Below are positions 21,786 to 62,442 of a stretch of DNA of 64,000 bases, piece after piece. The stretch comes from an uncultured virus (IMG/VR IMGVR_UViG_3300042197_001183) (Duplodnaviria > Heunggongvirae > Uroviricota > Caudoviricetes): IMG/VR virus record IMGVR_UViG_3300042197_001183; one strand, 5' to 3'. How positions within the stretch are numbered: position 1 is the stretch's first letter; each line of letters starts with the position of its first letter. The position numbers and the translations under genes are program-made. The notes under the pieces were generated by a model, which saw nothing but the letters and a program-made list of their open reading frames with translations, searched no databases and was not told where the DNA came from.

Positions 21786-24700
21786 ATGTCAAAAATAATT
21801 TCACAAGAGATAATCGAGAGCTTTTTAAATGGTTCAGATTCGGAACAATACATTGTTGGGGTGGAATACGACTATCAAACAAACAAAATTTTTAAAATAA
21901 TTCAAGACCCCGAAAGAGGTAAAATTATTAAATCAGATACCTTAATACCATTTTTATGGGTTGGTGATTTAAGTGAATGTAATTTTTATGGTGGAAATAA
22001 GTCTCTTCAGAAAAAGAAGATGGCTGAGTTTGGTATTGTAATTGAGAAACTACAAACACATGGGAACAACAGACTAGAAAATGGTCAATGTTATTTAGTA
22101 AAAAGTTTTAAAAATTACACATCTTTAGTTTCGTTTTTTAGATATGGGGGAGTTGACCCTTGGAACGAAAAATATAAACATTTATTCACCATATTGTCTC
22201 CGGTTGAACAATTTTTAGTTCAAAAGAAAAAAAGACTTTTTAAGGGTATTGATGATTATTCTGGTGTATATCGTTTTGTTTTTGACATTGAGACAACAGG
22301 TCTTGAACCTGAAAAAAATAGAATAATCCTTATTGGCGTTAAAGATAATCGTGGTTTTAAAAAAACCATATCGGCATTTGGGGATGATGGTGAAAAAAAA
22401 TGTATAGAAGAATTCTTTGAAATAATTAAAGAATTAAAACCCACTATAATAGGTGGTTACAATTCTGCGTCTTTTGATTTCCCTTTCATTTTAAAAAGAG
22501 CCGAAATTTTGGGTGTCGACATTAAAGAATGTACATCTATTTTCACTAATAATGGTATTAAACAAAAAGAAGGGATGCTAAAATTAGCAAACGAAGTGGA
22601 ACCATATACCCAACATATAATATGGGGTCATAATATTGTGGATATATCTCATTCAGTTAGAAGAGCACAGGCTATTAATTCGGAAATTAAGTCTTGGGGA
22701 TTGAAGTATATCACTCAATACTTAGAAAAAGAAAAACCAAATCGTGTTTATGTCGAAGGTTCTACCATTTCTAAGATATATTTAGAAAATGATAGTTATT
22801 ATGTTAATCCAAAAACAGGTAAATACAAAAAAATTGGTGAACCAGGTACGGAGAATTTGTTAGACAAATACCCCGGTAAATATGAAATATGGTCGGGTCA
22901 AAGAATAGTTGAACAATATCTTGACGATGACTTGTATGAAACAATGATTGTTGATGATTCGTTTTCACAATCAACATTTTTATTATCTAAATTGGTCCCA
23001 ACAACCTATGAAAGAATTGCAACTATGGGTACCGCCACTCTTTGGAAAATTATCATGTTGGCGTGGTCTTATGAGAATGAATTAGCAATTCCCGCTAAAG
23101 ATGAAAAAAGAGGGATTACTGGTGGTTTATCAAGATTGTTGAATGTTGGGTATTCAAAGAACATCGTAAAATTTGACTATGCTTCTCTTTACCCATCAAT
23201 TCAATTAGTTTATGATGTCTTTCCCGAATGTGATGTAATGGGTGTTCAAAAATCTATGTTAAAGTATTTTAGAAACATTCGTATCAAATACAAGAGGTTA
23301 GCTGGTGAACTGGCAAAAACAAATCCTGTTGAAGCGGAAATGTACGACCGAAAACAATTACCTATTAAGATTTTTATTAATGCGTATTTTGGTTCGTTAT
23401 CCGCACCCCAAGTATTTCCATGGGGTGATATGAATATGGGTGAAACAATTACCTGTACGGGTCGTCAATGTCTCCGTATGATGATTATGTTTTTTGAGAA
23501 AAAGGGATATAAACCACTCGTTATGGATAGTGTGGAATATGATACACCTATCTATCTTATGGATAAAATGGGTGATTTAGTTATTTTACCAATTTCAGAT
23601 ATCTTTGATGAAGAATCTGAATATAAAACTGACGATAATTTAAGAGATTTTTCAGAAAAAGAATATAAAGTTTTGACTAATCATGGTTGGCAACCAATTA
23701 ATTATGTTTATCGCCATGGAACAACAAAAACAATACATAAGTTAGTCACTAAGGATAGGTTAGTTAATTGTACATCTGACCATTCGGTATTCCAAAATGG
23801 TGTTCAAATAAAACCAACAAATTTGAAAAGAGGGGATAAAATAGATATCGTTGAAATACCTACAATGAATAATATTGACACTATGAGTTTGGATATGGCT
23901 AATTTAATTGGGTTTTTTATTGGTGATGGTTCAAGTACATATAGAGATAGGGGTCAAACATATAAAAATAAAAGAGGCGTTGTAAAAAGATATCGAAATA
24001 TGTCAGGTAATTTCACTTTAAATAACTCAAGGTTAGATATTTTAGAAAAATATCAAAAAGTATTAAAAAAAGAATTTGGGGTTGATTCTAAAATCAACGA
24101 TACACGTGAAAGTTCATCGGTCTATAAATTACAAACATCTAATGCGGAGATTTGTAAGTGGTTTTCAAAAAATTGTTATACAGGATATCGTCAAAAAATG
24201 GTTCCAAAAGAAATATTGAATAGTTCTAGTGAAATTATGAAATCATTTTTAGATGGATTTTACCTTGCTGATGGGTATGGTGATGATTTTAATAATCCCA
24301 TTGATATCGCTCAAAAATCAAAAGTTTGTGTTGCTGGTATTGTATTTTTATTAAAACAATTAGGTATTAGTTACAAAATTCAAATACGTAAAGATAAACC
24401 AAACATTCAAAGTATCATATTGGGCCACAAAAGAAATGATAAGTATTACAAAATTAACGACACCAAATCAAAAAGAAAAAGTGATGAGGTTTGGGGTAAT
24501 GTTGAATTAGAAAATAAAGAGAGGTATGTTTACGATATTTCGACCGCGGATGGGACTTTTGTTGGTGGGATTGGTGGAGTTCTTTTAAAGAATACCGATG
24601 GAGTAAATTTCTCAACACCAGAAGATATTGATTCTCACATTTATATTGGTAAAGGTTTAAATGAATTGGTAGAAAAGGGTAAAGAGTATATAGGCATTGA

Positions 24701-25748
24701 AGCGGACACCGCAGAATTCAATGATATCTTTATGAGAAATGAAATGGGACTTGACATTGATTACACCGCACCCGCTTGTATTAATGTATCAAGAAAAAAT
24801 TATATCATTAAACTCCTTAAAAAAGGAAAAGAAAAGATTAAACTAACAGGAAATACCATTAAATCCAAAAAACTTCAACAATACATTGTGGAATTTTTAG
24901 ATGAAGGTCTAAAACACTTATTGAATGGAGATGGGTTGTCGTTTATTGAATTATACTACAAATACGCTGAAAACATATATAATCAAAAAATACCACTATC
25001 AAAAATGGCGAATAAATCGAGAGTAAAACAATCGGTTGAAGACTATAAAAAACATATTAAAAAGACAACAAAATCAGGTTCTTTGATGTCTCGTCAAGCA
25101 CATATGGAGTTGGTTATTCAAAATAACTATCCTGCTGGTTTAGGTGAAACAATATACTATATTAATAATGGTAAAAAGAAATCCGATGGTGATGTCCAAA
25201 AGATAACAAAACCAACCAAAAAACAACAAGAAGAGTATTTTCAAAAACACGGGGAACAAATACCTATCGATTATTTGGAAATAAATTGTTATATGATTTC
25301 GGAAAAAGAAATGAGTAACAATCCTGAAATGACAGGCGATTATAATGTTGCAAGATATTTGAATAATTTTAATAAAAGAATAGAACCTTTATTGGTTGTC
25401 TTTAATCCTGAAATTCGTCACGATATTTTAATTGAAAATCCAGAAAAAAGACAATACTTTACTAAAACACAATGTCAATTGGTTAGTGGTTACCCATTAA
25501 AAGAAGATGGGCAAGATAAGTACGATGAGGTTATGACCTTATCAGATAGTGAAGTATTATTTTGGAATAGAGTTAATAGAGACCCATTTTTTATGTATGT
25601 GGAAGATAGTTTAGAACTTGTAAATCCACATTGGGTCGAATTAAATAGAAAAGTTGTGAAGTTAGAATCTGAAAGTATTAAGAATAATGAGGACGAATAT
25701 ATCGAAAATAACGGGAATGACTTTGCGTTCCACGCAGTAGAGACTTAA
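21786..25748 (+). CDS. polB: Family B DNA polymerase, intein-containing
   Basis: Exo motifs FDIETTG and GGYNSASFDFPF; pol motifs DYASLYPS, KIFINAYFG and VMD/TDG split by an intein. Confidence 0.95.
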   Translation: MSKIISQEIIESFLNGSDSEQYIVGVEYDYQTNKIFKIIQDPERGKIIKSDTLIPFLWVGDLSECNFYGGNKSLQKKKMAEFGIVIEKLQTHGNNRLENGQCYLVKSFKNYTSLVSFFRYGGVDPWNEKYKHLFTILSPVEQFLVQKKKRLFKGIDDYSGVYRFVFDIETTGLEPEKNRIILIGVKDNRGFKKTISAFGDDGEKKCIEEFFEIIKELKPTIIGGYNSASFDFPFILKRAEILGVDIKECTSIFTNNGIKQKEGMLKLANEVEPYTQHIIWGHNIVDISHSVRRAQAINSEIKSWGLKYITQYLEKEKPNRVYVEGSTISKIYLENDSYYVNPKTGKYKKIGEPGTENLLDKYPGKYEIWSGQRIVEQYLDDDLYETMIVDDSFSQSTFLLSKLVPTTYERIATMGTATLWKIIMLAWSYENELAIPAKDEKRGITGGLSRLLNVGYSKNIVKFDYASLYPSIQLVYDVFPECDVMGVQKSMLKYFRNIRIKYKRLAGELAKTNPVEAEMYDRKQLPIKIFINAYFGSLSAPQVFPWGDMNMGETITCTGRQCLRMMIMFFEKKGYKPLVMDSVEYDTPIYLMDKMGDLVILPISDIFDEESEYKTDDNLRDFSEKEYKVLTNHGWQPINYVYRHGTTKTIHKLVTKDRLVNCTSDHSVFQNGVQIKPTNLKRGDKIDIVEIPTMNNIDTMSLDMANLIGFFIGDGSSTYRDRGQTYKNKRGVVKRYRNMSGNFTLNNSRLDILEKYQKVLKKEFGVDSKINDTRESSSVYKLQTSNAEICKWFSKNCYTGYRQKMVPKEILNSSSEIMKSFLDGFYLADGYGDDFNNPIDIAQKSKVCVAGIVFLLKQLGISYKIQIRKDKPNIQSIILGHKRNDKYYKINDTKSKRKSDEVWGNVELENKERYVYDISTADGTFVGGIGGVLLKNTDGVNFSTPEDIDSHIYIGKGLNELVEKGKEYIGIEADTAEFNDIFMRNEMGLDIDYTAPACINVSRKNYIIKLLKKGKEKIKLTGNTIKSKKLQQYIVEFLDEGLKHLLNGDGLSFIELYYKYAENIYNQKIPLSKMANKSRVKQSVEDYKKHIKKTTKSGSLMSRQAHMELVIQNNYPAGLGETIYYINNGKKKSDGDVQKITKPTKKQQEEYFQKHGEQIPIDYLEINCYMISEKEMSNNPEMTGDYNVARYLNNFNKRIEPLLVVFNPEIRHDILIENPEKRQYFTKTQCQLVSGYPLKEDGQDKYDEVMTLSDSEVLFWNRVNRDPFFMYVEDSLELVNPHWVELNRKVVKLESESIKNNEDEYIENNGNDFAFHAVET
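23529..24593 (+). mobile_element. Intein (355 aa) with LAGLIDADG endonuclease in polB motif C
   Basis: VMD|SVEYDTPI...CTSDHS...LIGFFIGDG...FLDGFYLADG...VYDIST..GGVLLKN|TDG; removal restores MDTDG. Confidence 0.92.
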
Positions 25749-33906: not shown

Positions 33907-35547
33907 TTATAAAATTTTTTTATAGACAATTGTTCCACAATCATATATTCTGTAGATTTGTCTCTCTAACATAATTTTATGTTCGGTTTTATTTGTGATA
34001 TCAAATCCTTGTTTTTTTAATATTTCTTTTCTAAAATTAAAACGATGATATCGTTTTTTATTTTTAACATACCAATATGTTGGTTGATTAATTGATATTT
34101 TTTCAAATTTTAATTTTTCATATAAATCTCCTTGGCTCCACCTTCTATCGGCATAACTTACTATTTCTTTTGGTGAATATTTCTTGATGAAGAATTTAAG
34201 TAACCTATCTGCTCCACCAATTACAATTGTATTTAATTTATTACAGAATCTACTCAATTCGTAACCATCATAAAACTTACCAATTCCTAATCTGGGTCTT
34301 GTAAACACCATCAATGACACCAATTCTTCATTTAAAAACAAACCAATATTAATTTTAGAATTTATTTTTCCTTGGATATGATTTTCATTTAAAAAATTAC
34401 GGGAAATATTATTACTAACTTCTTTAATTGTACATCTTCTAGCAAAAATTTTATTTTTAGTTAATCCAAAAAGATTCATTAATCTAGATTTAACAATTTC
34501 TTTTTTGTCCAACCATTCATCTTCAAAAATATGTATTAGTTTTATTCCTTTACTTTCACATAATTCGGTTTTCCTCAAATGATAATTTTTATCAACCTTT
34601 AACTCATTGTGCCAATATAAACCATTAAATTCTATCGCGATATTATGTGATGGAACAAAAATATCCAATTGATTTGGTTTTATTATTGATGTTGATGACG
34701 TTATTGTTTTAATATTATTCTCAAATAAAAAATTATTAATTTCTTTTTCCATTCCTGAAACGGACGATGTACACATAATACATCCATGATTTGAAATATG
34801 GTCATATGGTAATTGTTCAAAAATACCATGTTCGGGGCAAATAATTTTTACCTTAGTTTGTGAATTAATATATTCAACCAATGAATAATCATATTTTTCT
34901 CCGTGAGTTAGTTTTGAATCTAAAATGAATTCTTCGGCTGTTTTAGTTAATGAAATTTTTCTATCGTTTGTTGAACATATTGGACAACCATTACCATATA
35001 AATGTTTCGATGGTAATTGATTAAATACTCCGTGTTCTTTGCAAATAATTTCAATCTTTGTTTTTGAATCAATATATTCAACCAACGAATAATCGTATTT
35101 GTTACCATGGGTAATTCTTGATTTTTTGATAAACCCGGTTAAATTGTCTTTTGGTTTCGTAATTAATTTTGAACATATAGGACAACCTTGTCCTTTCATA
35201 TGATTTGTTGGTAGTTGTTCAAATATTCCGTGTTCTTTGCAAATAATTTTAACTTTTGTTTTTGAATCAATATATTCAACCAATGAATAATCGTATTTAT
35301 TACCATGGGTTTTAACACATTTATTGATTAACTCAAGAGTATTTGTGGTATATTTTGAACACAATTTACATTTTATTCTACCTCTTAAATGTTCTCTTGG
35401 TTCTTGCTCAAATACTCCGTGTTCTTTGCAAATAATTTTAACTTTTGTTTTTGAATCAATATATTCAACCAATGAATAATCATATTTATCTTCATATAAT
35501 TTTTTTGCCTTTATAACAAATTTTTCTCTTTTAGTAAGTTTTTCCAT
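33907..35547 (-). CDS. Free-standing Hef-like homing endonuclease: four Zn-ribbon repeats, PD-(D/E)XK nuclease, C-terminal Hef/Mom-like domain
   Basis: Four KYDYSLVEYI.S.TK..IIC.EHG.F.Q.P..H repeats; LDIFVP..IAIEFNGLYWH; ELSRFC..IGGA..SYADRRWS. Antisense between sheath and tube; start probably MEKLTK (35547). Confidence 0.8.
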   Translation of the reverse strand: MEKLTKREKFVIKAKKLYEDKYDYSLVEYIDSKTKVKIICKEHGVFEQEPREHLRGRIKCKLCSKYTTNTLELINKCVKTHGNKYDYSLVEYIDSKTKVKIICKEHGIFEQLPTNHMKGQGCPICSKLITKPKDNLTGFIKKSRITHGNKYDYSLVEYIDSKTKIEIICKEHGVFNQLPSKHLYGNGCPICSTNDRKISLTKTAEEFILDSKLTHGEKYDYSLVEYINSQTKVKIICPEHGIFEQLPYDHISNHGCIMCTSSVSGMEKEINNFLFENNIKTITSSTSIIKPNQLDIFVPSHNIAIEFNGLYWHNELKVDKNYHLRKTELCESKGIKLIHIFEDEWLDKKEIVKSRLMNLFGLTKNKIFARRCTIKEVSNNISRNFLNENHIQGKINSKINIGLFLNEELVSLMVFTRPRLGIGKFYDGYELSRFCNKLNTIVIGGADRLLKFFIKKYSPKEIVSYADRRWSQGDLYEKLKFEKISINQPTYWYVKNKKRYHRFNFRKEILKKQGFDITNKTEHKIMLERQIYRIYDCGTIVYKKIL

Positions 35548-35555
35548 TATCACGA

Positions 35556-35562
35556 TATTTAT
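35556..35562 (+). promoter_or_regulatory. Putative late promoter (TATTTAT) of the tail tube gene
   Basis: Recurrent motif GATATTTATAAA. Confidence 0.5.
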
Positions 35563-35611
35563 AAACATACAAATAGAAGTATAATAATAAATATAAAGAA
35601 AAAAAAATAAA

Positions 35612-36100
35612 ATGGCAGATTTATTAATGAAAATGCCGGTTCCATACGAACCGAAACGTCAAAATAGATTCATTTTAAGATTTCCATCTTCATTGGGAAT
35701 CAATGAATGGTATGTATCGTCCGCGGCTAGACCTTCGGCAAAAATAAATTCAGTAGCAATACCATTTTTAAATACTTCAACATATGTTGCTGGTAGATTT
35801 GAGTGGGCCGAGATGAGAGTAACTTTTAGAGACCCAATTGGACCTTCAGCCGCTCAAGCGTTAATGGAGTGGTTCAGATTACATGCTGAATCTGTTACAG
35901 GTAGAATGGGATATGCTGCTGGTTATAAGAAAGATATTGAACTAGAAATGTTAGACCCAACGGGTGTAGTTGTTGAAAAATGGATTATGCAGGGTACATT
36001 CATTACCGATTTAAACTTCAATGAATTAGATTATTCAAGGGATGAAATCGCAACAATTACTTGTTCCTTACGTCCAGATAGATGTATTTTGGTGTACTAA
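35612..36100 (+). CDS. gp19: Tail tube protein
   Basis: EPKRQNRF, YVAGRFEW, W..L..GYAAGYKKD, LDPTGVVVEKW..G.F..LDYS; follows the sheath gene. Confidence 0.9.
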   Translation: MADLLMKMPVPYEPKRQNRFILRFPSSLGINEWYVSSAARPSAKINSVAIPFLNTSTYVAGRFEWAEMRVTFRDPIGPSAAQALMEWFRLHAESVTGRMGYAAGYKKDIELEMLDPTGVVVEKWIMQGTFITDLNFNELDYSRDEIATITCSLRPDRCILVY

Positions 36101-36126
36101 TTCAAAAAAAATAATTATCTCAATAG

Positions 36127-36162
36127 AAAGGGTCTTCTCAAAAGGAAGACCTTTACTTTTTT
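36127..36162 (+). terminator. Probable terminator after tail tube
   Basis: GGTCTTC-TCAAAAG-GAAGACC followed by TTTACTTTTTT. Confidence 0.6.
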
Positions 36163-36207
36163 ATATAGTTTTGTATTTTATAATAGTTATAGTTAAAAGA
36201 TAAATTT

Positions 36208-36603
36208 ATGAATGACATATTTAAATTTGAACCAATCGAACCACTAATTGAAAATAGATATATTATCAATATTGTTGGTACATATATTCCTCAATTCCTT
36301 TTTAGGAAGTATAAAATTCACAATGAGGGAGAAGAATTAATTTTTACTACAGAATTTTATGAAACAGTAAATTTCACATTTAACCCAAAAGATTTTTTTG
36401 AAATCACTGGTGTTAAAATAGATTACCTTTCACCCATTGGTGAAGTGGTAAGTTCTTTAGAATTTAAAATAAAAGGTTCAAATTTTGAAAAAGAACAATC
36501 GTATTCAAATAGTGAATTACAAACAAACAAACTTAAATTTATCATGGATAAAGAATCAATACAATTAACGTCAAAATCAAACGAAGAAAATGGAAGAATT
36601 TAA
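36208..36603 (+). CDS. Divergent tail-tube paralog
   Basis: EPLIENRYI vs EPKRQNRFI; YLSPIGEVV vs MLDPTGVVV; NFEKEQSYS vs NFNELDYS. Confidence 0.6.
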   Translation: MNDIFKFEPIEPLIENRYIINIVGTYIPQFLFRKYKIHNEGEELIFTTEFYETVNFTFNPKDFFEITGVKIDYLSPIGEVVSSLEFKIKGSNFEKEQSYSNSELQTNKLKFIMDKESIQLTSKSNEENGRI

Positions 36604-37339
36604 AATAGACCCAAACATTGCATATGACGTTGTTGAATTACCTTCAAGAGGTATTTTTTATAAAAACAGAAAAAAATCAGTAAGAGTAGCATATTTAACC
36701 GCCGCAGATGAAAACATATTATCTTCATCAAACTTAATTCAAAACAATACTGTTATTGATGAATTGTTAAAAAGAAAAATAATTGATAAAGATATTGATT
36801 TAGAAGAATTAGTGGATGAAGATAGAATGGCGGTTTTAATCTTTTTAAGAAATACCGCTTTTGGTTCTGAATATAGTTACAAAATAATTGACGGAAAAAC
36901 CGGTAAAGACTTTGATGTTTCTTTCGATTTAAGTGAATTATCATTTAAAGAATTCAATCTTGAACCAAATGAAAATGGGGAATTTAAATACACAACCAAT
37001 ATTTCAAAAATTGATATCACTTTCAAATTTTTAACAAAAAAACAAGAAAAAGAAATTGAACAAATTGAAAAAAGTTGGAATGGTGTCGGTGCTCCACCAA
37101 TTGTCACAAAACAACTTGAGTTTATGATTAAATCAGTTGCTGGTAATAAAGACCCAATGAATATCAGAAATTTTATTGAAAATCTACCAATTAAAGACTC
37201 TCAAGACTTTAGAAAATATGTTAGAGAGAATAGACCCGCAATTGACCTAAAAAAAGAAGTAATGACCCCATCAGGAGAGAATATCCAAATTGTTATTGGA
37301 TTTGGGGTCGAATTTTTTCGCCCTTTCTACGGAATATAG
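36590..37339 (+). CDS. Tail/baseplate assembly chaperone, gp26-like
   Basis: VELPSRG, YLTAADENIL, DRMAVLIFLRNTAFG, F.FLT, FIENLPIKDS, FGVEFFRP; immediately upstream of tape measure. Confidence 0.75.
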   Translation: MEEFKIDPNIAYDVVELPSRGIFYKNRKKSVRVAYLTAADENILSSSNLIQNNTVIDELLKRKIIDKDIDLEELVDEDRMAVLIFLRNTAFGSEYSYKIIDGKTGKDFDVSFDLSELSFKEFNLEPNENGEFKYTTNISKIDITFKFLTKKQEKEIEQIEKSWNGVGAPPIVTKQLEFMIKSVAGNKDPMNIRNFIENLPIKDSQDFRKYVRENRPAIDLKKEVMTPSGENIQIVIGFGVEFFRPFYGI

Positions 37340-37466
37340 AAAGGGTCAATTAGACGAAATATTATATCTAATAAGAAGAGGATTTTCCTACGGGGATATT
37401 CTTTCTATGCCCATATCGATTAGACGATACTATGTTAGTTATATTCAAGAGTTAGAAAATAAATAA
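37314..37466 (+). CDS. Small overlapping +1-frame ORF (gp51-like / chaperone C-terminal extension)
   Basis: FFALSTEYRKGQLDEILYLIRRGFSYGDILSMPISIRRYYVSYIQELENK*; no in-frame ATG at its 5' end; fills the gap before the tape measure. Confidence 0.7.
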   Translation, partial: FFALSTEYRKGQLDEILYLIRRGFSYGDILSMPISIRRYYVSYIQELENK

Positions 37467-37493
37467 AATTGATATTTATATGTAAACAATTTT

Positions 37494-39440
37494 ATGAGAA
37501 GTATAAGTGATTTTAGAAGTCTCGCTAACCTAAGTAATGGTAATATTCAAGCTTACATAAGTGCATGTGGTGCAATTGACCCATCCGAGTCAAGTGCGTT
37601 TCTCAAAGCGTGGAATGATTACGCATCATCACAAAATAAAATTAACTCACCATCCTCAACTGATGGTAATGTTGGTGAAAATATTGTTAATGATTTTAAA
37701 GTTGTACAAAATTTAACAACTAATGTTAAATCATATAACATAGCTGAGGGTGAAATGATTCAAGTGAGTAATATAATTACGGGGATTCAAGGTTTAATTA
37801 AAGGTGTTATGGGTGAAGGTGGTCTTCTTGGTGAAGGTAATTTTAGTGAAAATTTAAAAACACAAGTAGATAATTTAGGGAAATCAATACTTGGTGAAGT
37901 TACAGGTAAAGCGGCACAAATATTACAACAAGAAGTTGAATTACATAATGATATAAATTCAAAAATTGGTATTTCAGGGGAATTATCTAGAGGGTTAAGA
38001 AATGAAATTGTGGAAACTTTACCCGAAATGATAACCATGGGTTATGGATTTGAGGATGTTAAAAAAACCATTACAGGAATAATAGAGGAACAGGGTAAAT
38101 TTACTTTGTACAACAGGGAAGTAATGGGAGATATGGCGGTAACATCAAGAGCGTTTGTTGGTGATTTAGAAAATCTCGGAAAAATGATTAGTACCTATGA
38201 AAAGGCGGGTTATGGCGCTGCCGGTGCTTTAGAAAGAATAAATGAAGCGGGTGAAAGTTCAATTAGTTTAGGTTTAAACGCAAGAAAAGTTGTTGCAGAA
38301 ATCGAAACGAATATGAAAAATTTAAATTCATATGGATTTAAAAATGGTTATGATGGTTTAACAAAAATGGTTCAAAAATCGATTGAATTTAAAATGAGTA
38401 TGCAAAATGTATTTACATTAGCTGAAAAACTATTTGACCCCGACCAAGCAGTTGCATTATCCGCTAATTTACAAGCGATAGGTGGTGCGATAGGTGATTT
38501 TAATGACCCATTAAAATTAATGTATATGGCAACAAACGATGCTGGTGGTTTACAAGATGCGATGATTGGTGTTGCGGGTTCTTTAGCGACTTATAATTCA
38601 GAATTAGGTAAATTTGAAATTACTGGTGTTAATTTAAGAAAAGCAAGGGCGTTAGCTGGTGAGTTAGGTATGACTATGGATGAATTATCAACTACAGCAA
38701 TAAAGGCGGCGGAAAGAACATCGGCATCTGCAGATTTATTAGCTGGCGGATTTAATCTTGACGAAAAACAACAAGAGTTTATCACAAACTTAGCCAGAAT
38801 GGAAGGTGGTAAAATGGTCATTGATGTCCCAAAAGATTTATTTACAGAATTTAAAGGAGCAACAAGAGTTGCTTTGGAAGATTTAAATGATGAACAAGTA
38901 AGAGTGTTATTAGATAATCAAAAAGTGTTCGAAGAAATGAACGCGAAAGACATTGCATTATCTCAATATACCGAAACCCAAAAATTAGGACTTCAAGTTT
39001 CAGAAATAGTTACAATGATGAAAGTTCAATTCGCCGGTAGTATTCGAGGGGACCTTTCGAAAGTTGATGAAAAATATATATCAGAAGTTAATCAATTTTT
39101 AAAAGAAACAAAAGAGGGAACAAATAGTTTGGGAAAGATATTAGTAGGTGAAAAAGATAAAATGACATCCGGTTATAAGAAGGAAATAACTGAAGAGGGG
39201 GGGATAAAAGCAAATGATATGATTTTACGACCAGATGGCCCACCTATCCTCTTAAATTCTAATGACACCATTTATGCTGTGGACGAAACTAAAAATAGGG
39301 GGAATAATGTTACGACTGAAAATAAAACAATGAAAATTGAAATTGTAAGTAATGTTAATGCTGATGCCATAAGAAATGACATAATGAATCAAATGGCGAT
39401 GACATCAGATTATAGAGAATATATTGGAACATTTAGTTAA
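37494..39440 (+). CDS. Tape measure protein
   Basis: Ala/Gly/Leu-rich helical 648-aa protein after tube and chaperone; C-terminal ANDMI.RP..LNSNDTI module. Confidence 0.75.
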   Translation: MRSISDFRSLANLSNGNIQAYISACGAIDPSESSAFLKAWNDYASSQNKINSPSSTDGNVGENIVNDFKVVQNLTTNVKSYNIAEGEMIQVSNIITGIQGLIKGVMGEGGLLGEGNFSENLKTQVDNLGKSILGEVTGKAAQILQQEVELHNDINSKIGISGELSRGLRNEIVETLPEMITMGYGFEDVKKTITGIIEEQGKFTLYNREVMGDMAVTSRAFVGDLENLGKMISTYEKAGYGAAGALERINEAGESSISLGLNARKVVAEIETNMKNLNSYGFKNGYDGLTKMVQKSIEFKMSMQNVFTLAEKLFDPDQAVALSANLQAIGGAIGDFNDPLKLMYMATNDAGGLQDAMIGVAGSLATYNSELGKFEITGVNLRKARALAGELGMTMDELSTTAIKAAERTSASADLLAGGFNLDEKQQEFITNLARMEGGKMVIDVPKDLFTEFKGATRVALEDLNDEQVRVLLDNQKVFEEMNAKDIALSQYTETQKLGLQVSEIVTMMKVQFAGSIRGDLSKVDEKYISEVNQFLKETKEGTNSLGKILVGEKDKMTSGYKKEITEEGGIKANDMILRPDGPPILLNSNDTIYAVDETKNRGNNVTTENKTMKIEIVSNVNADAIRNDIMNQMAMTSDYREYIGTFS

Positions 39441-51702: not shown

Positions 51703-51776
51703 GGTTCGTTAGTAGAGTTGGTTACAATATCGCACTGTCACTGCGAAGGTCGTGGGTTCGATTCCCACACGAACCG
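51703..51776 (+). tRNA. tRNA-Asp (GTC)
   Basis: Acceptor GGTTCGT/ACGAACC, anticodon arm TCGCA-CTGTCAC-TGCGA, T arm GTGGG-TTCGATT-CCCAC, discriminator G; CCA not encoded. Confidence 0.93.
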
Positions 51777-51825
51777 CTTTTGGGGGATATAACTACTCAC
51801 CCCAAATCTCAGGGCGGGGACATAT

Positions 51826-51899
51826 AGGGGAATATATCAATTGGTTAGATTACGTGCTTTGGGAGCACGAGGTTGTGGGTTCGAGTCCCGCTTCCCCTA
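51826..51899 (+). tRNA. tRNA-Pro (TGG)
   Basis: Acceptor AGGGGAA/TTCCCCT, anticodon arm CGTGC-TTTGGGA-GCACG, T arm GTGGG-TTCGAGT-CCCGC, discriminator A; CCA not encoded. Confidence 0.92.
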
Positions 51900-51920
51900 C
51901 AAAAAAAAATTGTGAAACAT

Positions 51921-57840: not shown

Positions 57841-60800
57841 ATGAAAGTTAAAAAGAGAGATGGGTCATTAGAAGAAATGAGATATGACAAAATCACAAGA
57901 AGAATTCAAAATTTTTGTGACGATTTAAATCTTGAATATATTGACCCCACATGGATAACACTTAAAGTAACGCAAGGTATATACGATGGTATATCAACAA
58001 CGGAATTAGATGTATTAGCAGCGGAGACCGCTGCCTCTCTTGTTACTTCTCATTCAGACTATGCAAAATTAGCTGGTAGATTGGCAGTATCTAATTTACA
58101 CAAAACAACACCAAAGAAATTCTCTCAATCAATAAAAGAATTACATTCTTTTGTTGAACCAAAAACAAACAAAGAATCTTCGTTAATATCTAACGAAACA
58201 TATTCATTTGTTCAACAATATAAAGATGTTTTAGATGGTGCCATTGTTCAAGAAAGAGATTTTGATTTTGATTATTTTGGTTTTAAGACATTAGAACGTT
58301 CATATCTATTGAAGATTGGTAATCGTATTGTTGAAAGACCGCAATACATGTATATGAGAGTTGCTGTTGGTATTTGTAATAACGACATTGAAAACGCTTT
58401 AAGGATTTATGATGATTTATCTCAACATTTTTATACCCACGCAACTCCAACATTATTTAATGCGGGAACACATAGACCACAAATGTCATCCTGTTTTTTG
58501 ATTGGTAATAAAGGTGATGATATTGATGGTTTATTTGACACAATAAAAGATGTTGCAAAAATATCTAAATGGGCGGGTGGTATTGGTTTACATGTTCACG
58601 ATGTAAGAGGTAAGGGTGCGTATATTAAAGGGACGGGTGGTGAGTCAGATGGTTTATTACCGATGATGAAAACATACAACGAAGTTGCTCGCTGGATTAA
58701 TCAATGTTTTACACCTGACACTTTATTATACACCAGTGAAGGTGTAAAAAGAATGGACGAATTACGAAATGGTGATTTAGTATTAACTAAAGAAAGAAAA
58801 TATTCCGAAGTAGGTGAGGTTTTAGTTTATCACCAAAATGGTGGAATGATTGAGATTGAAACCAAATCAACCTTAAAACCACTAAGGTTAACAGATTCAC
58901 ATCCGTTGTTTGGGTTTAAGAATACATATAGTAGAATATCTAGAGAAAATAGTGAATTTCTTAATCAATTAGAAAAGGGTATTGTGACCCCTGATTGGAT
59001 TGATAGTGGTGAATATAAAGTTGGTGATTTTATCGGTAAACCAATCCCAAAAGAAATTATTGATGTTGAAGATTTCACAGAAGACGACGCGTTTATTTAT
59101 GGGTTATTATTGGGTGATGGTCACATTAGTAGAAAGGAAGTGGGTATATCATTTAATAAAATAACTAACGAAAACGAAGTTAATTTTGTTAAAGACTATT
59201 TAACTAAAAAAGGTATAAATTTTTGGGAACACAGTTCAGATGAAAGACCATATTTAAATGTGAGATTTTCATTATCTAAATTATCGTGGTTATCATATGA
59301 GTTACTTTATAATGATAAAAAAGAGAAAAGGATTCATTTAAAATATTCACATTTACCTTTAAATAAATCAATTAGAATTATTTTAGGGTTAATTAAATCG
59401 GACGGAGGTGTTTATAGAAAAAATGAAATACATTTCTATAACACTAGTGAACTATTAATTGAAGGTATGTCATATCAAATACTTAGATTTGGCGTTCCAA
59501 CATATGGGGAATGGAGGGTTAGAGAGAATAATAGTGTTTATTTAAAAGAAAATGGTTGTAATAAAGAAAATACCTTATCGTGTGATTTAAGAATACCATC
59601 ATTCAAAGAATTATCTGATTTGTTGAATATTGAACAAGTGACTAAGAAAAATTGGATAATATGGGATAATATTCTTTATACTAGAATCACAAGTATAAAA
59701 ATGTTAGATGATTATGATGGAAAAGTCTACGATTTAAAAATTAAAGAAAATAGCGATGACCCATCATATACTCTGACCAGTTGTTTAGTTCACAATGGGG
59801 GAAAAAGACGCGGTTCATTTGCTGTTTATCTCGAACCATGGCACTCAGATGTATTTGAGTTTATTGAATTAAGAAAAAACCATGGAAAAGAAGAATTAAG
59901 AGCCAGAGATTTATTTTTAGCGATGTGGGTTCCTGATTTATTTATGAAAAGAGTGGAACAAGATTTAGATTGGTCATTATTTTCACCAGATGAAGCACAT
60001 GGATTATCCGACGTGTACGATGACCCGTATTTGTTTACTCAAGAATTTACTGAACTTTATGAAAGATATGAGAAGGAAGGTAGAGCAAGAAAAGTCGTAA
60101 AGGCTAGAAAATTAATGGATGCCATTTTGACCGCACAAATTGAAACGGGGGTACCTTATATGTTGTATAAAGATGCTGCTAATTACAAGTCAAACCAAAA
60201 GAACTTAGGTACAATTAAATCATCTAACTTGTGTATAACAGGTGACCAAAGAGTGGTGACAACAAAGGGTTACTTAACAGCTAAAGAATTGTGTGAAATG
60301 GATGTGGAATTAGAACTTTTTAATGGTTCTGAAATTGTCAAATCATCCAAAATGATTAAACGAGGTGAAAATGAAGATGTTTATAAAATAACATTAGAAA
60401 ATGGTATGGAACATAAAGTAACACCATATCATGGAATACCTGTAATTGACTCAAGAAATAATATAACACGTATTGAATGTAAGGATTTAAAAATAGGTGA
60501 TAAAATACCAATACAAATTAATAAAGGATTGTTTGGTTCAAAAGAAATGGTAGATGAGTCCTTTTTATTGGGTTTATATCAATCAGATGGTACGCAAAAC
60601 AAATCATCAATTTTATTTGATTTATGGGAAAATGATTTTGATTTAGTTGAAGAGATTGAAAACAAAATTCAAAAATTATATTCAAAATACGAGTATAAAC
60701 CTAGATATTCAACTAAAGGTGGTAAATTTATAGATTGTGTTGTTTCATTTTCTAAAGTAAAGAAAAAAAGATTATCTAGTGAATTTTTTAAAAAAGAATT

Positions 60801-62442
60801 ACTCTTTGAAAAGGGATATGTACCCGAATGGATTTGGTCTTCAAATGAAGAAACGCAATGGTCTTATTTGCGGGGTTTATTATTTGCTGATGGAACAGCT
60901 AATAAAAATAAATCAAAAGGAGAACCAATACAAATAAGTTATGCCGACATAAATATTGATTTTTTAAAAGAACTTCAATTAATTTTTCAAAATTTAGGTC
61001 TTCAAACATCTATTAGATTGTTAAGAAATGGAGGTCAACGGTCATTACCAAATGGTAAAGGTGGATATTCACTATACAAAACAAAAGATTGTTATAGATT
61101 AATTGTTGGTAATAAAAATGACTCACAAAAAATAAATGAAAAAATAGGGTTTCTTGATAGAAAAAACATAATCATTGACAATCGTGAATTTCGGGATAAT
61201 ACGAAAAAGGGATATAAAGTAAAATCCATAGAATATGTGGGTAAAGAAGATGTTTATTGTCCAACAATTTATAATGATGAACATATTTTTATTTCACAAG
61301 GATTAAAAACATTTAATTGCACTGAAATTCTAGAATTTTCTTCTTCAGAAGAACAAGCGGTTTGTAATTTAGCATCTATTGCTTTACCAAAATACATTGT
61401 TAATAAAGATTTTAGTCACGAGTTACTTTATGAATATGTATATCAAGTAGTAAAAAATTTGAACAATGTTATTGATTTGAATTTTTACCCAACAGACGAA
61501 ACGAAACTTTCGAATATGAGACACAGACCAGTTGGTTTAGGTGTTCAAGGATTGGCCGATGTTTTTTGTATATTGAAAATACCATTTGAAAGTGAAGAAG
61601 CGAATAAATTACAGGTTGAAATATTTGAAACAATGTATTTTGCAGCATTATCATCGTCAAAAGATTTATCAAAAGAAAATGGACCATATTCATCTTATGA
61701 AGGTTCGCCAATTTCTAAAGGTAAATTTCAATATGAACTTTGGGGTAAAAAAGATGAAGACACTAGTGGTAGATGGGATTGGAAATTTTTAAGAAATGAG
61801 ATTTTAAACCATGGTGTAAGAAATTCTCTTTTAATTGCCCCAATGCCAACGGCATCTACCGCTCAAATTTTAGGTAATAACGAAGCCTTTGAACCTTTTA
61901 CCTCTAATCTCTATTCAAGAAGAACATTGGGTGGTGAATTTATTGTAATCAATAAACATTTGGTTAATGAATTATTAGAAAGAGGGTTATGGTCTGACGA
62001 TATAAAGAAAAAACTAATAATGGAAAATGGTTCAGTACAAAACATACCAGAAATTCCTGTTGATGTAAAAGAAATTTATAAAACTGTTTGGGAGATGTCA
62101 CAAAAAAGAATTTTAACAATGGCAGCTAACAGGTCAATTTATATTGACCAATCCCAGTCATTAAATTTATTTATCGATAATGCTAGTAAAACAAAAGTTA
62201 TGGCCGCTCATTTATATGGTTGGAAACTTGGATTAAAAACGGGTATGTACTATCTTAGAACTAAGGCAGCCGTTGACCCAATTAAGGGTTTGGGTATTGA
62301 TACTTCGTCTTCAAAACCAAATGTTGAAAATCATACAAACAATGTTAAAGAACAAAATTTAACAAGTAATTATGTTGAAGAAATGGTTTTATCGATTAAA
62401 CCAAATGATTCACCATTTGAATGTGAAGGTTGTGGTTCATAA
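57841..62442 (+). CDS. nrdA: Ribonucleotide reductase class Ia alpha subunit with ATP cone and two inteins
   Basis: VKKRDG ATP cone, ATPTLFNAG, SSCFL, SNL/CTEI, CNLAS, APMPTASTAQ, KTGMYY, C-terminal CEGCGS. Confidence 0.97.
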   Translation: MKVKKRDGSLEEMRYDKITRRIQNFCDDLNLEYIDPTWITLKVTQGIYDGISTTELDVLAAETAASLVTSHSDYAKLAGRLAVSNLHKTTPKKFSQSIKELHSFVEPKTNKESSLISNETYSFVQQYKDVLDGAIVQERDFDFDYFGFKTLERSYLLKIGNRIVERPQYMYMRVAVGICNNDIENALRIYDDLSQHFYTHATPTLFNAGTHRPQMSSCFLIGNKGDDIDGLFDTIKDVAKISKWAGGIGLHVHDVRGKGAYIKGTGGESDGLLPMMKTYNEVARWINQCFTPDTLLYTSEGVKRMDELRNGDLVLTKERKYSEVGEVLVYHQNGGMIEIETKSTLKPLRLTDSHPLFGFKNTYSRISRENSEFLNQLEKGIVTPDWIDSGEYKVGDFIGKPIPKEIIDVEDFTEDDAFIYGLLLGDGHISRKEVGISFNKITNENEVNFVKDYLTKKGINFWEHSSDERPYLNVRFSLSKLSWLSYELLYNDKKEKRIHLKYSHLPLNKSIRIILGLIKSDGGVYRKNEIHFYNTSELLIEGMSYQILRFGVPTYGEWRVRENNSVYLKENGCNKENTLSCDLRIPSFKELSDLLNIEQVTKKNWIIWDNILYTRITSIKMLDDYDGKVYDLKIKENSDDPSYTLTSCLVHNGGKRRGSFAVYLEPWHSDVFEFIELRKNHGKEELRARDLFLAMWVPDLFMKRVEQDLDWSLFSPDEAHGLSDVYDDPYLFTQEFTELYERYEKEGRARKVVKARKLMDAILTAQIETGVPYMLYKDAANYKSNQKNLGTIKSSNLCITGDQRVVTTKGYLTAKELCEMDVELELFNGSEIVKSSKMIKRGENEDVYKITLENGMEHKVTPYHGIPVIDSRNNITRIECKDLKIGDKIPIQINKGLFGSKEMVDESFLLGLYQSDGTQNKSSILFDLWENDFDLVEEIENKIQKLYSKYEYKPRYSTKGGKFIDCVVSFSKVKKKRLSSEFFKKELLFEKGYVPEWIWSSNEETQWSYLRGLLFADGTANKNKSKGEPIQISYADINIDFLKELQLIFQNLGLQTSIRLLRNGGQRSLPNGKGGYSLYKTKDCYRLIVGNKNDSQKINEKIGFLDRKNIIIDNREFRDNTKKGYKVKSIEYVGKEDVYCPTIYNDEHIFISQGLKTFNCTEILEFSSSEEQAVCNLASIALPKYIVNKDFSHELLYEYVYQVVKNLNNVIDLNFYPTDETKLSNMRHRPVGLGVQGLADVFCILKIPFESEEANKLQVEIFETMYFAALSSSKDLSKENGPYSSYEGSPISKGKFQYELWGKKDEDTSGRWDWKFLRNEILNHGVRNSLLIAPMPTASTAQILGNNEAFEPFTSNLYSRRTLGGEFIVINKHLVNELLERGLWSDDIKKKLIMENGSVQNIPEIPVDVKEIYKTVWEMSQKRILTMAANRSIYIDQSQSLNLFIDNASKTKVMAAHLYGWKLGLKTGMYYLRTKAAVDPIKGLGIDTSSSKPNVENHTNNVKEQNLTSNYVEEMVLSIKPNDSPFECEGCGS
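58705..59796 (+). mobile_element. Intein 1 in nrdA (364 aa, LAGLIDADG), +1 residue Gly
   Basis: WINQ|CFTPDT..LTDSHP..YGLLLGDG..LGLIKSDG..VYDL..LVHN|GGKRRG. Confidence 0.88.
60232..61317 (+). mobile_element. Intein 2 in nrdA (362 aa, LAGLIDADG) at the catalytic Cys
   Basis: SSNL|CITGDQ..VTPYH..LGLYQSDG..LRGLLFADG..VYCP..KTFN|CTEI. Confidence 0.92.

What the first reader, a model, noticed from the sequence alone, without database searches (positions are those of the whole stretch)
37263..37466. Probable programmed +1 (or -2) frameshift at UUU_UUU_CGC in the tail chaperone gene
Seen: the gp26-like gene ends GAA TTT TTT CGC CCT TTC TAC GGA ATA TAG. The +1 frame is closed by TGA at 37263, has only TTG codons before the overlap, and continues TTT TTC GCC CTT TCT... 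to TAA at 37464 as a convincing peptide (EILYL..GFSYGDILSMP..RRYY). The -1 frame stops within about 12 codons. Established: long-tailed phages usually make G/GT chaperones by a frameshift just upstream of the tape measure (mostly -1, -2 in Mu). UUU_CGN is a known +1 shift signal in eukaryotic RNA viruses, where tRNA-Phe re-pairs from UUU to UUC. Inference: a 249-aa short form and an about 291-aa fusion are made, i.e. a G/GT-style switch using an atypical shift direction in a T4-like phage.
Basis: partly seen in the sequence, partly recalled or inferred. Interest (0 to 1): 0.75.

Follow-up and report, generated by a model that had tools for sequence, protein, structure and literature searches.

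The report
Forward frameshift in phage tail chaperone
A tail-assembly gene of this freshwater T4-like phage overlaps a second reading frame that often has no start codon, an arrangement kept in 345 related loci, so some ribosomes likely slip one base forward to make a longer chaperone, possibly helped by an RNA hairpin just upstream, whereas T4-like cyanophages are predicted to slip backward at the same spot.

Summary
Confirmed. The gp26-like gene (249 aa) ends TTT TTT CGC; a +1 frame from there encodes a gp51-like domain (profile match 94%), giving a 291-aa fusion. Of 361 loci examined, 345 keep the +1 relation, 4 have the domain in -1, 2 lack it, 10 are truncated. 65 of 261 unique loci have no start codon for it. 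Natural variants favour +1: tRNA-Phe can re-pair +1 in 344 of 345, but -2 fails in 25, including three separate TTC-TTT lineages. The shared signal is UUU-Y, not UUU-CGN. New here: a conserved, covarying hairpin ends 2-4 nt upstream in the window's subclade; -1 cyanophages, and one of two -1 switchers clearly, have a downstream hairpin instead. No protein-level proof exists. Prior art: Vladimirov 2022 (not readable here) names gp26/gp51 as tail chaperones; +1 chaperone shifts are known elsewhere; this scan noted the same +1 site on other DNA. New variant of a known kind.

The parts
35612..36100 (+). Tail tube gene (gp19-like), the presumed partner of the added domain
   Evidence: phrog_4542 E 2e-26; PF06841 weak
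36590..37339 (+). gp26-like tail assembly chaperone, short form (G / TAC-N), 249 aa
   Evidence: PF12322 E 6e-6, phrog_150 E 9e-9; model pLDDT 86; top fold matches include the HK97 tail assembly chaperone, Z 4.8
37264..37309 (+). Upstream RNA stem-loop (outer stem 37264-70 with 37303-09, inner stem 37283-88 with 37296-301) ending 3 nt before the first TTT; candidate +1 stimulator
   Evidence: -15.0 kcal/mol, z -1.39 alone; subclade conservation and covariation
37313..37319 (+). Shift site TTT TTT C; predicted P-site tRNA-Phe re-pairing UUU to UUU/UUC in the +1 frame
   Evidence: sequence; variant analysis of 345 loci
37314..37466 (+). +1 frame encoding the gp51-like C-terminal (T / TAC-C) domain; adds 48 aa after Phe243 to give 291 aa
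   Evidence: profile match to T4-like gp51/T domains, prob 94.2, E 1.2e-7, 57 columns
37320..37346 (+). Downstream 10-bp hairpin over the G stop codon; present in the window, no conserved excess in the clade
   Evidence: z -2.10; clade mean z -0.14 and +0.31
37494..39440 (+). Probable tape measure gene (648 aa), inferred from position
   Evidence: no Pfam/PHROG hit; Atlas feature hits include two tape-measure clusters at 0.92, ranks 27 and 30; no BLASTP match to the immuto tape measure

Best explanation
The gp26-like gene encodes a 249-aa tail assembly chaperone and overlaps a +1 frame for a gp51-like domain; a minority of ribosomes likely slip one base forward while tRNA-Phe sits on UUU followed by U or C, which would give a 291-aa long form, and a stem-loop ending 3 nt upstream possibly drives the slip. 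Shown: the frames, their conservation, the homology of the added domain, the lack of starts in many homologs, and the conserved pairing potential. Inferred: that the slip occurs, its +1 direction (from variants), the P-site codon (either Phe codon in this window; both give ...VEFF-ALSTEYR), stimulation by a hairpin refolding behind the E site, any help from a slowly read CGN codon, and the lambda-like roles (short form coats the tape measure, long form recruits the tube).
For: Frame constancy: 345 of 361 loci examined have the domain in +1 (238 by open frame, 107 by profile); the +1 frame is open for 40 or more codons or to the contig end in 171 of 171 unique loci, the -1 frame in 6 of 171. 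No start: 65 of 261 unique loci have no ATG/GTG/TTG from the upstream +1 stop to 15 codons past the site, 170 no ATG, 67 a stop within 3 codons upstream. Direction: cognate +1 re-pairing possible in 344 of 345; -2 cognate in 283, wobble in 37, impossible in 25 (16 of 261 unique); the base after the second codon is C or T in 345 of 345. TTC-TTT falls in three separate places on the tree. Natural controls: L416 and L429 lost UUU-Y and have an ATG after the stop; L393 has TTC TTC but a TTT TTT CGC ten codons upstream in the open overlap. Homology; T4 gp51 carries the same domain in frame. Hairpin: most structured of 12 windows against synonymous controls in three clades (z -2.2, -1.31, -0.99) and of 10 windows in a second set (-2.35, -1.42); arm swap 49 of 61 against 25-33 of 61 elsewhere; outer stem 92% paired, 17 two-sided changes, 1 of 500 shuffles. 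Precedent: UUU_Ynn is +1-prone in bacteria (PMC5009743); a hairpin beside the E site stimulates +1 in E. coli extracts (PMC6321510).
Against: No protein, ribosome-profiling or reporter data; the two RNA runs laid do not cover the site. In this window the U6 run allows -2 as well; direction is borrowed from relatives. The window has three TTG codons and an AGGAG 13 nt before the first. In-frame TTT-T also occurs at codons 23, 85 and 147, so UUU-Y alone is not sufficient. The window's hairpin alone is not significant (18 of 200 shuffles); RNAalifold keeps only 5 pairs on the 61-sequence set; the inner stem changes register (52-64% paired); the swap test gives no signal outside the CGN subclade (64 of 118); L361-L365 lack the outer-stem motif and L393 has no upstream structure. 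Shared ancestry inflates all counts. The domain profile did not match T4 gp51 as a single sequence.
Confidence: 0.82

Rival explanations
1. Same fusion, but by a -2 slip on the U6 run as in phage Mu, giving a 292-aa product with three Phe at the junction.
For: TTT TTT allows perfect -2 re-pairing in the window and in 283 of 345 loci; -2 is known for the Mu chaperone (PMC3498833).
Against: 25 loci (TTC TTT, TTT CTA, GCT TTT, TTC TTC) cannot re-pair at -2 yet keep the +1 domain, several with a stop just upstream and no start. A pyrimidine after the second codon in 345 of 345 suits +1, though the Phe/Tyr of the new frame also demands it. No conserved downstream structure in the window's clade.
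Confidence: 0.07
2. The small domain is made as its own protein from a TTG (37290, 37296, 37302) or by re-initiation, with no fusion.
For: Three TTG codons and an upstream AGGAG in the window (AGGAG in 49 of 61 subclade sequences); one lineage (L416, L429) has its own ATG; all 80 cyanophage loci have an ATG 2 nt after the stop.
Against: No start position is universal (best 110 of 261) and 65 of 261 have none; 16 of 42 close unique loci have a +1 stop one codon before the site; the domain alignments begin at the FF junction; the lineage with its own ATG is the one that lost the site.
Confidence: 0.05
3. RNA polymerase slips on the T run and drops one U, so part of the mRNA carries the fused frame.
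For: A T6-T8 run exists in most loci.
Against: 61 of 345 loci have a T run of 4 or fewer, including cultured Flavobacterium phage immuto (TTT CTT TGG); runs this short are rarely slippage-prone (own knowledge).
Confidence: 0.03
4. The +1 shift is real but the upstream pairing is a by-product of the protein's beta-hairpin (T-P-S-G...G-F-G-V), or the GGGG acts as an internal Shine-Dalgarno as in prfB.
For: The stem overlaps conserved residues forming strands 221-225 and 231-235; GGGG sits at -9..-6 in 55 of 61; many relatives shift without a clear hairpin.
Against: Synonymous controls keep the protein fixed and still show excess structure; the paired third positions ACC and GGG do not vary synonymously in 41 close genes; A-U to G-C changes at pair 9-42 in 14 of 61 and a CAC/GTG swap in L360.
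Confidence: 0.45

Closest known systems
Lambda gpG/gpGT and the tail assembly chaperone frameshift of long-tailed phages (as reviewed in PMC5009743; passages read)
   Same: Short and long chaperone from one gene between tail tube and probable tape measure; the C-terminal half of the model matches the HK97 chaperone fold modestly (Z 4.8).
   Different: Shift into the +1 frame at UUU-Y instead of -1 on X_XXY_YYZ; candidate stimulator lies upstream; a 131-aa ORF lies between tube and chaperone.
T4 gp26 and gp51; Vladimirov, Gautam and Davidson 2022, Virology 566:9 (PMID 34826709; not held; seen only as a title and through citing passages in PMC12846349 and PMC10885494)
   Same: PF12322 family; the added domain is homologous to the gp51-like domains; T4 encodes short and long forms as two genes.
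   Different: One gene with a shift. The citing passage speaks of polyT -1 signals in T4-like chaperone genes; whether that paper covers this +1 clade could not be checked.
gp26 and short gp51 of T4-like cyanophages and relatives (P-SSM2, S-PM2, pf16, Aeh1, phiW-14, Atu_ph04)
   Same: Homologous Phe-Phe site and homologous downstream domain.
   Different: Domain in the -1 frame in 10 of 10 cultured phages picked and T TTT TTC in 80 of 80 P-SSM2-like loci, with a strong downstream structure (z -5 to -6) and none upstream (z +0.34).
Influenza PA-X +1 shift at UCC_UUU_CGU (PMC3498833; passages read)
   Same: P-site UUU to UUC re-pairing with CGN next, as in this window's subclade.
   Different: Eukaryotic ribosome; UCC absent here; 200 of 345 relatives have TGG next; PA-X has no evident stimulatory signal.
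+1 tail chaperone shifts: halovirus HSTV-2 (via PMC5009743) and 350 forward cases in the SEA-PHAGES training set (PMC10885494)
   Same: +1 direction in phage frameshifts, chaperone genes included.
   Different: Other phage groups; sites not compared here (the HSTV-2 paper is not held).
prfB +1 shift and its engineered upstream-hairpin mimic (PMC6321510; abstract and passages)
   Same: A duplex beside the E site promotes +1 and opposes -1 on 70S ribosomes.
   Different: There the hairpin was designed and the A site held a stop without RF2; here it is natural and the A site holds a sense codon.

Membership tests
G/GT tail assembly chaperone frameshift | Lies between tail tube gene and tape measure gene | tested here: inconclusive
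   Tube upstream is shown; the downstream 648-aa gene is a tape measure only by position and Atlas leads; in phage immuto the annotated order is tube, chaperone, small ORF, tape measure
G/GT tail assembly chaperone frameshift | Second ORF overlaps the end of the first in a constant other frame | tested here: met
   345 of 361 loci in +1
G/GT tail assembly chaperone frameshift | Second ORF has no conserved start of its own | tested here: met
   65 of 261 unique loci with none, 170 without ATG, no universal position
G/GT tail assembly chaperone frameshift | Conserved shift-prone site in the overlap | tested here: met
   In-frame UUU-Y in 344 of 345
G/GT tail assembly chaperone frameshift | Short form has the chaperone fold | tested here: inconclusive
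   Top VIA rows 3FGX Z 5.6, 3KLU 4.9, HK97 chaperone 2OB9 4.8 over residues about 125-220, below the tool's trust level of 8; that 3FGX and 3KLU are chaperones is recalled
G/GT tail assembly chaperone frameshift | Both proteins made in a fixed ratio; G binds tape measure, T binds tube | not testable with these tools
   Needs experiments
Canonical -1 (lambda-type) subtype | X_XXY_YYZ heptamer with the second ORF in -1 | tested here: not met
   Window reads A TTT TTT and its -1 frame closes after 12 codons
Mu-type -2 subtype | Re-pairing two bases back is possible throughout the family | tested here: not met
   Impossible in 25 of 345 loci, although possible in the window itself
T4 gp26/gp51 family | gp26-type N-terminal domain (PF12322) | tested here: met
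   26.5 bits against a cut-off of 24.5
T4 gp26/gp51 family | C-terminal domain homologous to gp51 | tested here: met
   Profile-profile prob 94.2 against 11 T4-like domains including the T4 gp51 tail; no match to T4 gp51 alone
PA-X-type UCC_UUU_CGU +1 site | UUU_C followed by G (CGN in the A site) | tested here: met
   Window; CGN in 135 of 135 loci with Arg, not family-wide
PA-X-type UCC_UUU_CGU +1 site | UCC codon 5' of UUU | tested here: not met
   GAA or TTT precedes in the window
prfB-type +1 site | [quoted passage not shown] | tested here: not met
   The G stop lies 6 codons after the second Phe
prfB-type +1 site | Internal Shine-Dalgarno just 5' of the site | tested here: inconclusive
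   GGGG at -9..-6 in 55 of 61, but matched by CCCC in 55 of 61

The most novel reading that the evidence does not exclude
A natural case of a co-translationally refolding upstream mRNA hairpin that drives a bacterial +1 frameshift, in a family where one homologous Phe-Phe site has switched direction repeatedly: upstream hairpin with +1 in this clade, downstream hairpin with -1 in cyanophages and in two separate switchers (L403, L444), an independent start in one lineage (L416, L429), and two genes in T4.
Probability: 0.45. Interest if true: 0.75.

Novelty: new variant of a known kind. Interest (0 to 1): 0.57.

Why it matters
It corrects annotation for a very large group of aquatic myophages (2532 protein clusters hit), where the domain is missed or given a false internal start, as in cultured phage immuto. 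That phage makes the claim testable by proteomics. +1 shifts at sense codons in bacteria are poorly understood. A site with matched natural +1 and -1 versions and mirror-image RNA structures would test whether flanking duplexes set the direction of slippage, so far shown with designed constructs in the paper read here (PMC6321510).

Tried and rejected
Complex prediction of tail tube with the added domain gave no answer (score 0.00); it is no evidence either way. Foldseek against the PDB found nothing at E 0.001. Pfam and PHROGs gave no significant hit for the small domain (weak rows: DUF6760 in 4 of 24, a tail assembly chaperone and a gp51-type PHROG in 1 of 24 each). Profile against T4 gp51 alone failed. 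BLASTP of the presumed tape measure against that of immuto was not significant. RNA runs X18 and X20 do not cover the site and contigs drop rare variants, so transcriptional slippage was not tested on reads. Rfam found nothing above threshold in 36000-37700. Promoter-like sites were at chance level (16 against 13.0). The downstream hairpin 37320-37346 was set aside as a conserved stimulator. No phage tRNA explains the site: only tRNA-Asp and tRNA-Pro lie in the window. A first tree did not finish; the FastTree tree uses 90 of 361 proteins with weak deep nodes. Two loci were mis-anchored by a codon and two, corrected. The profile search of representatives gave 1963 relatives without context and was not used further; I did not test for in-frame fused homologs with a 'longer' search. 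Literature searches that found no report of this +1 site: (open-access library only); the key paper and its supplements could not be seen.

Full report
Observation. The window is part of a 74-kb contig of a T4-like myophage (gp23, gp32, family B polymerase, gp25), found in freshwater metagenomes. The gene at 36590-37339 follows the sheath and tube genes and a 131-aa ORF, and matches PF12322 and phrog_150. Reading the one in-frame TTTC as a single step gives 291 aa. A contig from another study spans the region without gaps.

Conservation. I examined 361 loci: 240 viral loci, three GenBank phage records and the window (analysed), and 117 more from metagenomes, viral contigs and GTDB genomes (analysed). 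Most searches returned only their best 80 (of 109, 599, 600 and 551 relatives), and a few contigs occur twice. Ten loci are cut before the stop. 345 have the downstream domain in +1, 4 in -1 and 2 have none. Among 171 unique loci of the first set, the +1 frame is open for 40 or more codons or to the contig end in 171, the -1 frame in 6. In 41 close genes the region past the stop varies most at third positions of the +1 frame (entropy 0.59, 0.44, 1.14), and the Arg after the site is CGN in 41 of 41 while four other Arg columns are mostly AGA/AGG. TTT TTT itself is weak evidence in so AT-rich a genome.

No start of its own. In 65 of 261 unique loci there is no ATG, GTG or TTG between the upstream +1 stop and 15 codons past the site; 170 have no ATG; the commonest start position is shared by only 110. 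In cultured phage immuto the annotation starts the small ORF at an internal ATG after the conserved core. Two relatives, L416 and L429, have an ATG after the stop, and these are the ones that lost the site (TTC TTG, TTC CTT); they nest among frameshifting loci. L393 reads TTC TTC at the site but has TTT TTT CGC ten codons upstream in an open +1 overlap.

What the added domain is. The profile of 24 +1 domains matches the profile of 11 T4-like gp51/T domains with probability 94.2, E 1.2e-7, over 57 columns from the Phe-Phe junction; it does not match T4 gp51 as a single sequence. T4 gp51 has this domain in frame at its end, and gp26 stops after Phe-Phe. A review lists both as hub assembly chaperones (PMC3004832, passages). 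The model of the short form (pLDDT 86) has as top rows 3FGX, 3KLU and the HK97 tail assembly chaperone (Z 5.6, 4.9, 4.8), which is suggestive only. The next gene is a tape measure by position and weak Atlas leads.

Direction. The window's U6 run allows both +1 and -2. Relatives separate them. Scoring re-pairing by a simple rule, +1 is cognate at the first or second codon in 344 of 345 loci (first only in 42, second only in 23); -2 is cognate in 283, possible by a G-U wobble in 37 and impossible in 25, or 16 of 261 unique. TTC TTT occurs in three separate places on the tree and TTT CTA in at least two; several TTC TTT loci have a +1 stop just upstream and no start. T runs of 4 or fewer in 61 loci argue against polymerase slippage there. 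The next codon is TGG in 200, CGN in 135 and another in 10, so the family signal is UUU-Y. [quoted passage not shown] CGC is 5 of 557 Arg codons in 23 window genes, but the host's tRNA supply is unknown; the Bacteroidota host is inferred from relatives.

Candidate stimulator. The window folds a stem-loop at 37264-37309 ending 3 nt before the first TTT (not significant alone, 18 of 200 shuffles). With the protein held fixed and codons randomised, the 48 nt before the site are the most structured of 12 windows in all three clades (mean z -2.2, -1.31, -0.99; 30 loci each) and of 10 windows in the second set (-2.35, -1.42; 35 of the loci each). In 61 subclade representatives the native arms fold better than swapped arms in 49, against 25-33 in five control windows, and the stem ends 2-4 nt before the site in 53. 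The outer stem is 92% paired with 17 two-sided changes (1 of 500 shuffles, a control that ignores ancestry). Against this: RNAalifold keeps 5 pairs, the inner stem shifts register, the swap test is flat outside the subclade (64 of 118), and L361-L365 and L393 lack the motif. A designed hairpin beside the E site stimulates +1 and attenuates -1 in E. coli extracts (PMC6321510, abstract and passages).

Mirror image. Ten cultured T4-like phages that I picked (nine from the 60 rows listed of 1202 records, plus P-SSM2) all have the domain in -1, seven with T TTT TTY at the same Phe-Phe. 80 of 80 P-SSM2-like loci have T TTT TTC; 25 of them show no upstream structure (z +0.34) and a strong downstream one (z -5 to -6). 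They also have an ATG after the stop, so their shift is itself a prediction. Within the +1 family, L403 and L444 have the domain in -1 behind T TTT TTT, at separate places on the tree, with downstream hairpins (z -1.49, not significant, and -3.08) and none upstream.

Prior knowledge. The chaperone frameshift is classic. Vladimirov et al. [quoted passage not shown] PA-X shows UUU to UUC re-pairing by mass spectrometry (PMC3498833, passages). Seven searches of the open library found no report of this +1 site; PMC12859696, PMC12484599 and PMC11526630 (passages) added nothing. Earlier notes of this scan report the -1 form in many genomes and the +1 form, including TTTTTTCGN, on other DNA; a search for notes on an upstream hairpin returned none.

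Verdict. A real, widely conserved G/GT-type recoding site, very probably +1 (0.82 for the whole explanation), a new variant of a known kind. The upstream hairpin and the direction switches are the parts a specialist would find new; they rest on comparative evidence alone.

Noticed in passing
L403:790-870 and L444:830-905: Two relatives in separate branches have the downstream domain in the -1 frame behind T TTT TTT, with a hairpin a few bases downstream: apparent switches of shift direction.
   Followed up: partly
L416:1900-2050 and L429:1890-2040: Site lost; the small domain has its own ATG just after the stop and an N-terminal extension, so this lineage may make it as a separate protein.
   Followed up: partly
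L393:690-760: The usual site reads TTC TTC, but TTT TTT CGC lies ten codons upstream within an open +1 overlap: a possibly relocated shift site.
   Followed up: partly
L439 and L448, ends of the chaperone gene: Two homologs in gut Bacteroidales genome bins show no downstream domain in any frame near the stop.
   Followed up: no
window 37271-37278: TCAGGAGA in the bulge of the hairpin shows no synonymous change in 41 close genes; AGGAG is kept in 49 of 61 subclade sequences; role unknown.
   Followed up: partly
L245:7212-7270 (P-SSM2) and L247-L326: Strong hairpin 6-8 nt after T TTT TTC in cyanophage gp26-gp51 (z -4.07), covering the annotated gp51 ATG.
   Followed up: partly
window 36208-36603: 131-aa ORF without family hit between tail tube and chaperone, overlapping the chaperone start by 14 nt; absent at this place in phage immuto.
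   Followed up: no
window 33907-35568 (-): 553-aa gene with repeated zinc-finger-like units and a weak endonuclease-like domain, on the opposite strand between sheath and tube; looks like a mobile endonuclease.
   Followed up: no
window 36128-36154: Terminator-like hairpin after the tube gene, usable on both strands, upstream of the chaperone.
   Followed up: no
window 21786-25748 and 57841-62442: DNA polymerase and ribonucleotide reductase genes carry intein and LAGLIDADG domains.
   Followed up: no
window 51703-51900: tRNA-Asp(GTC) and tRNA-Pro(TGG) genes.
   Followed up: no
proteins P0129-P0271: Many distant homologs are 350-580 aa with long N-terminal extensions and an insertion after residue about 160.
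   Followed up: no
alignment A2: Four of 24 small domains weakly match Pfam DUF6760 (best E 0.004); no paper in the library names this family.
   Followed up: partly
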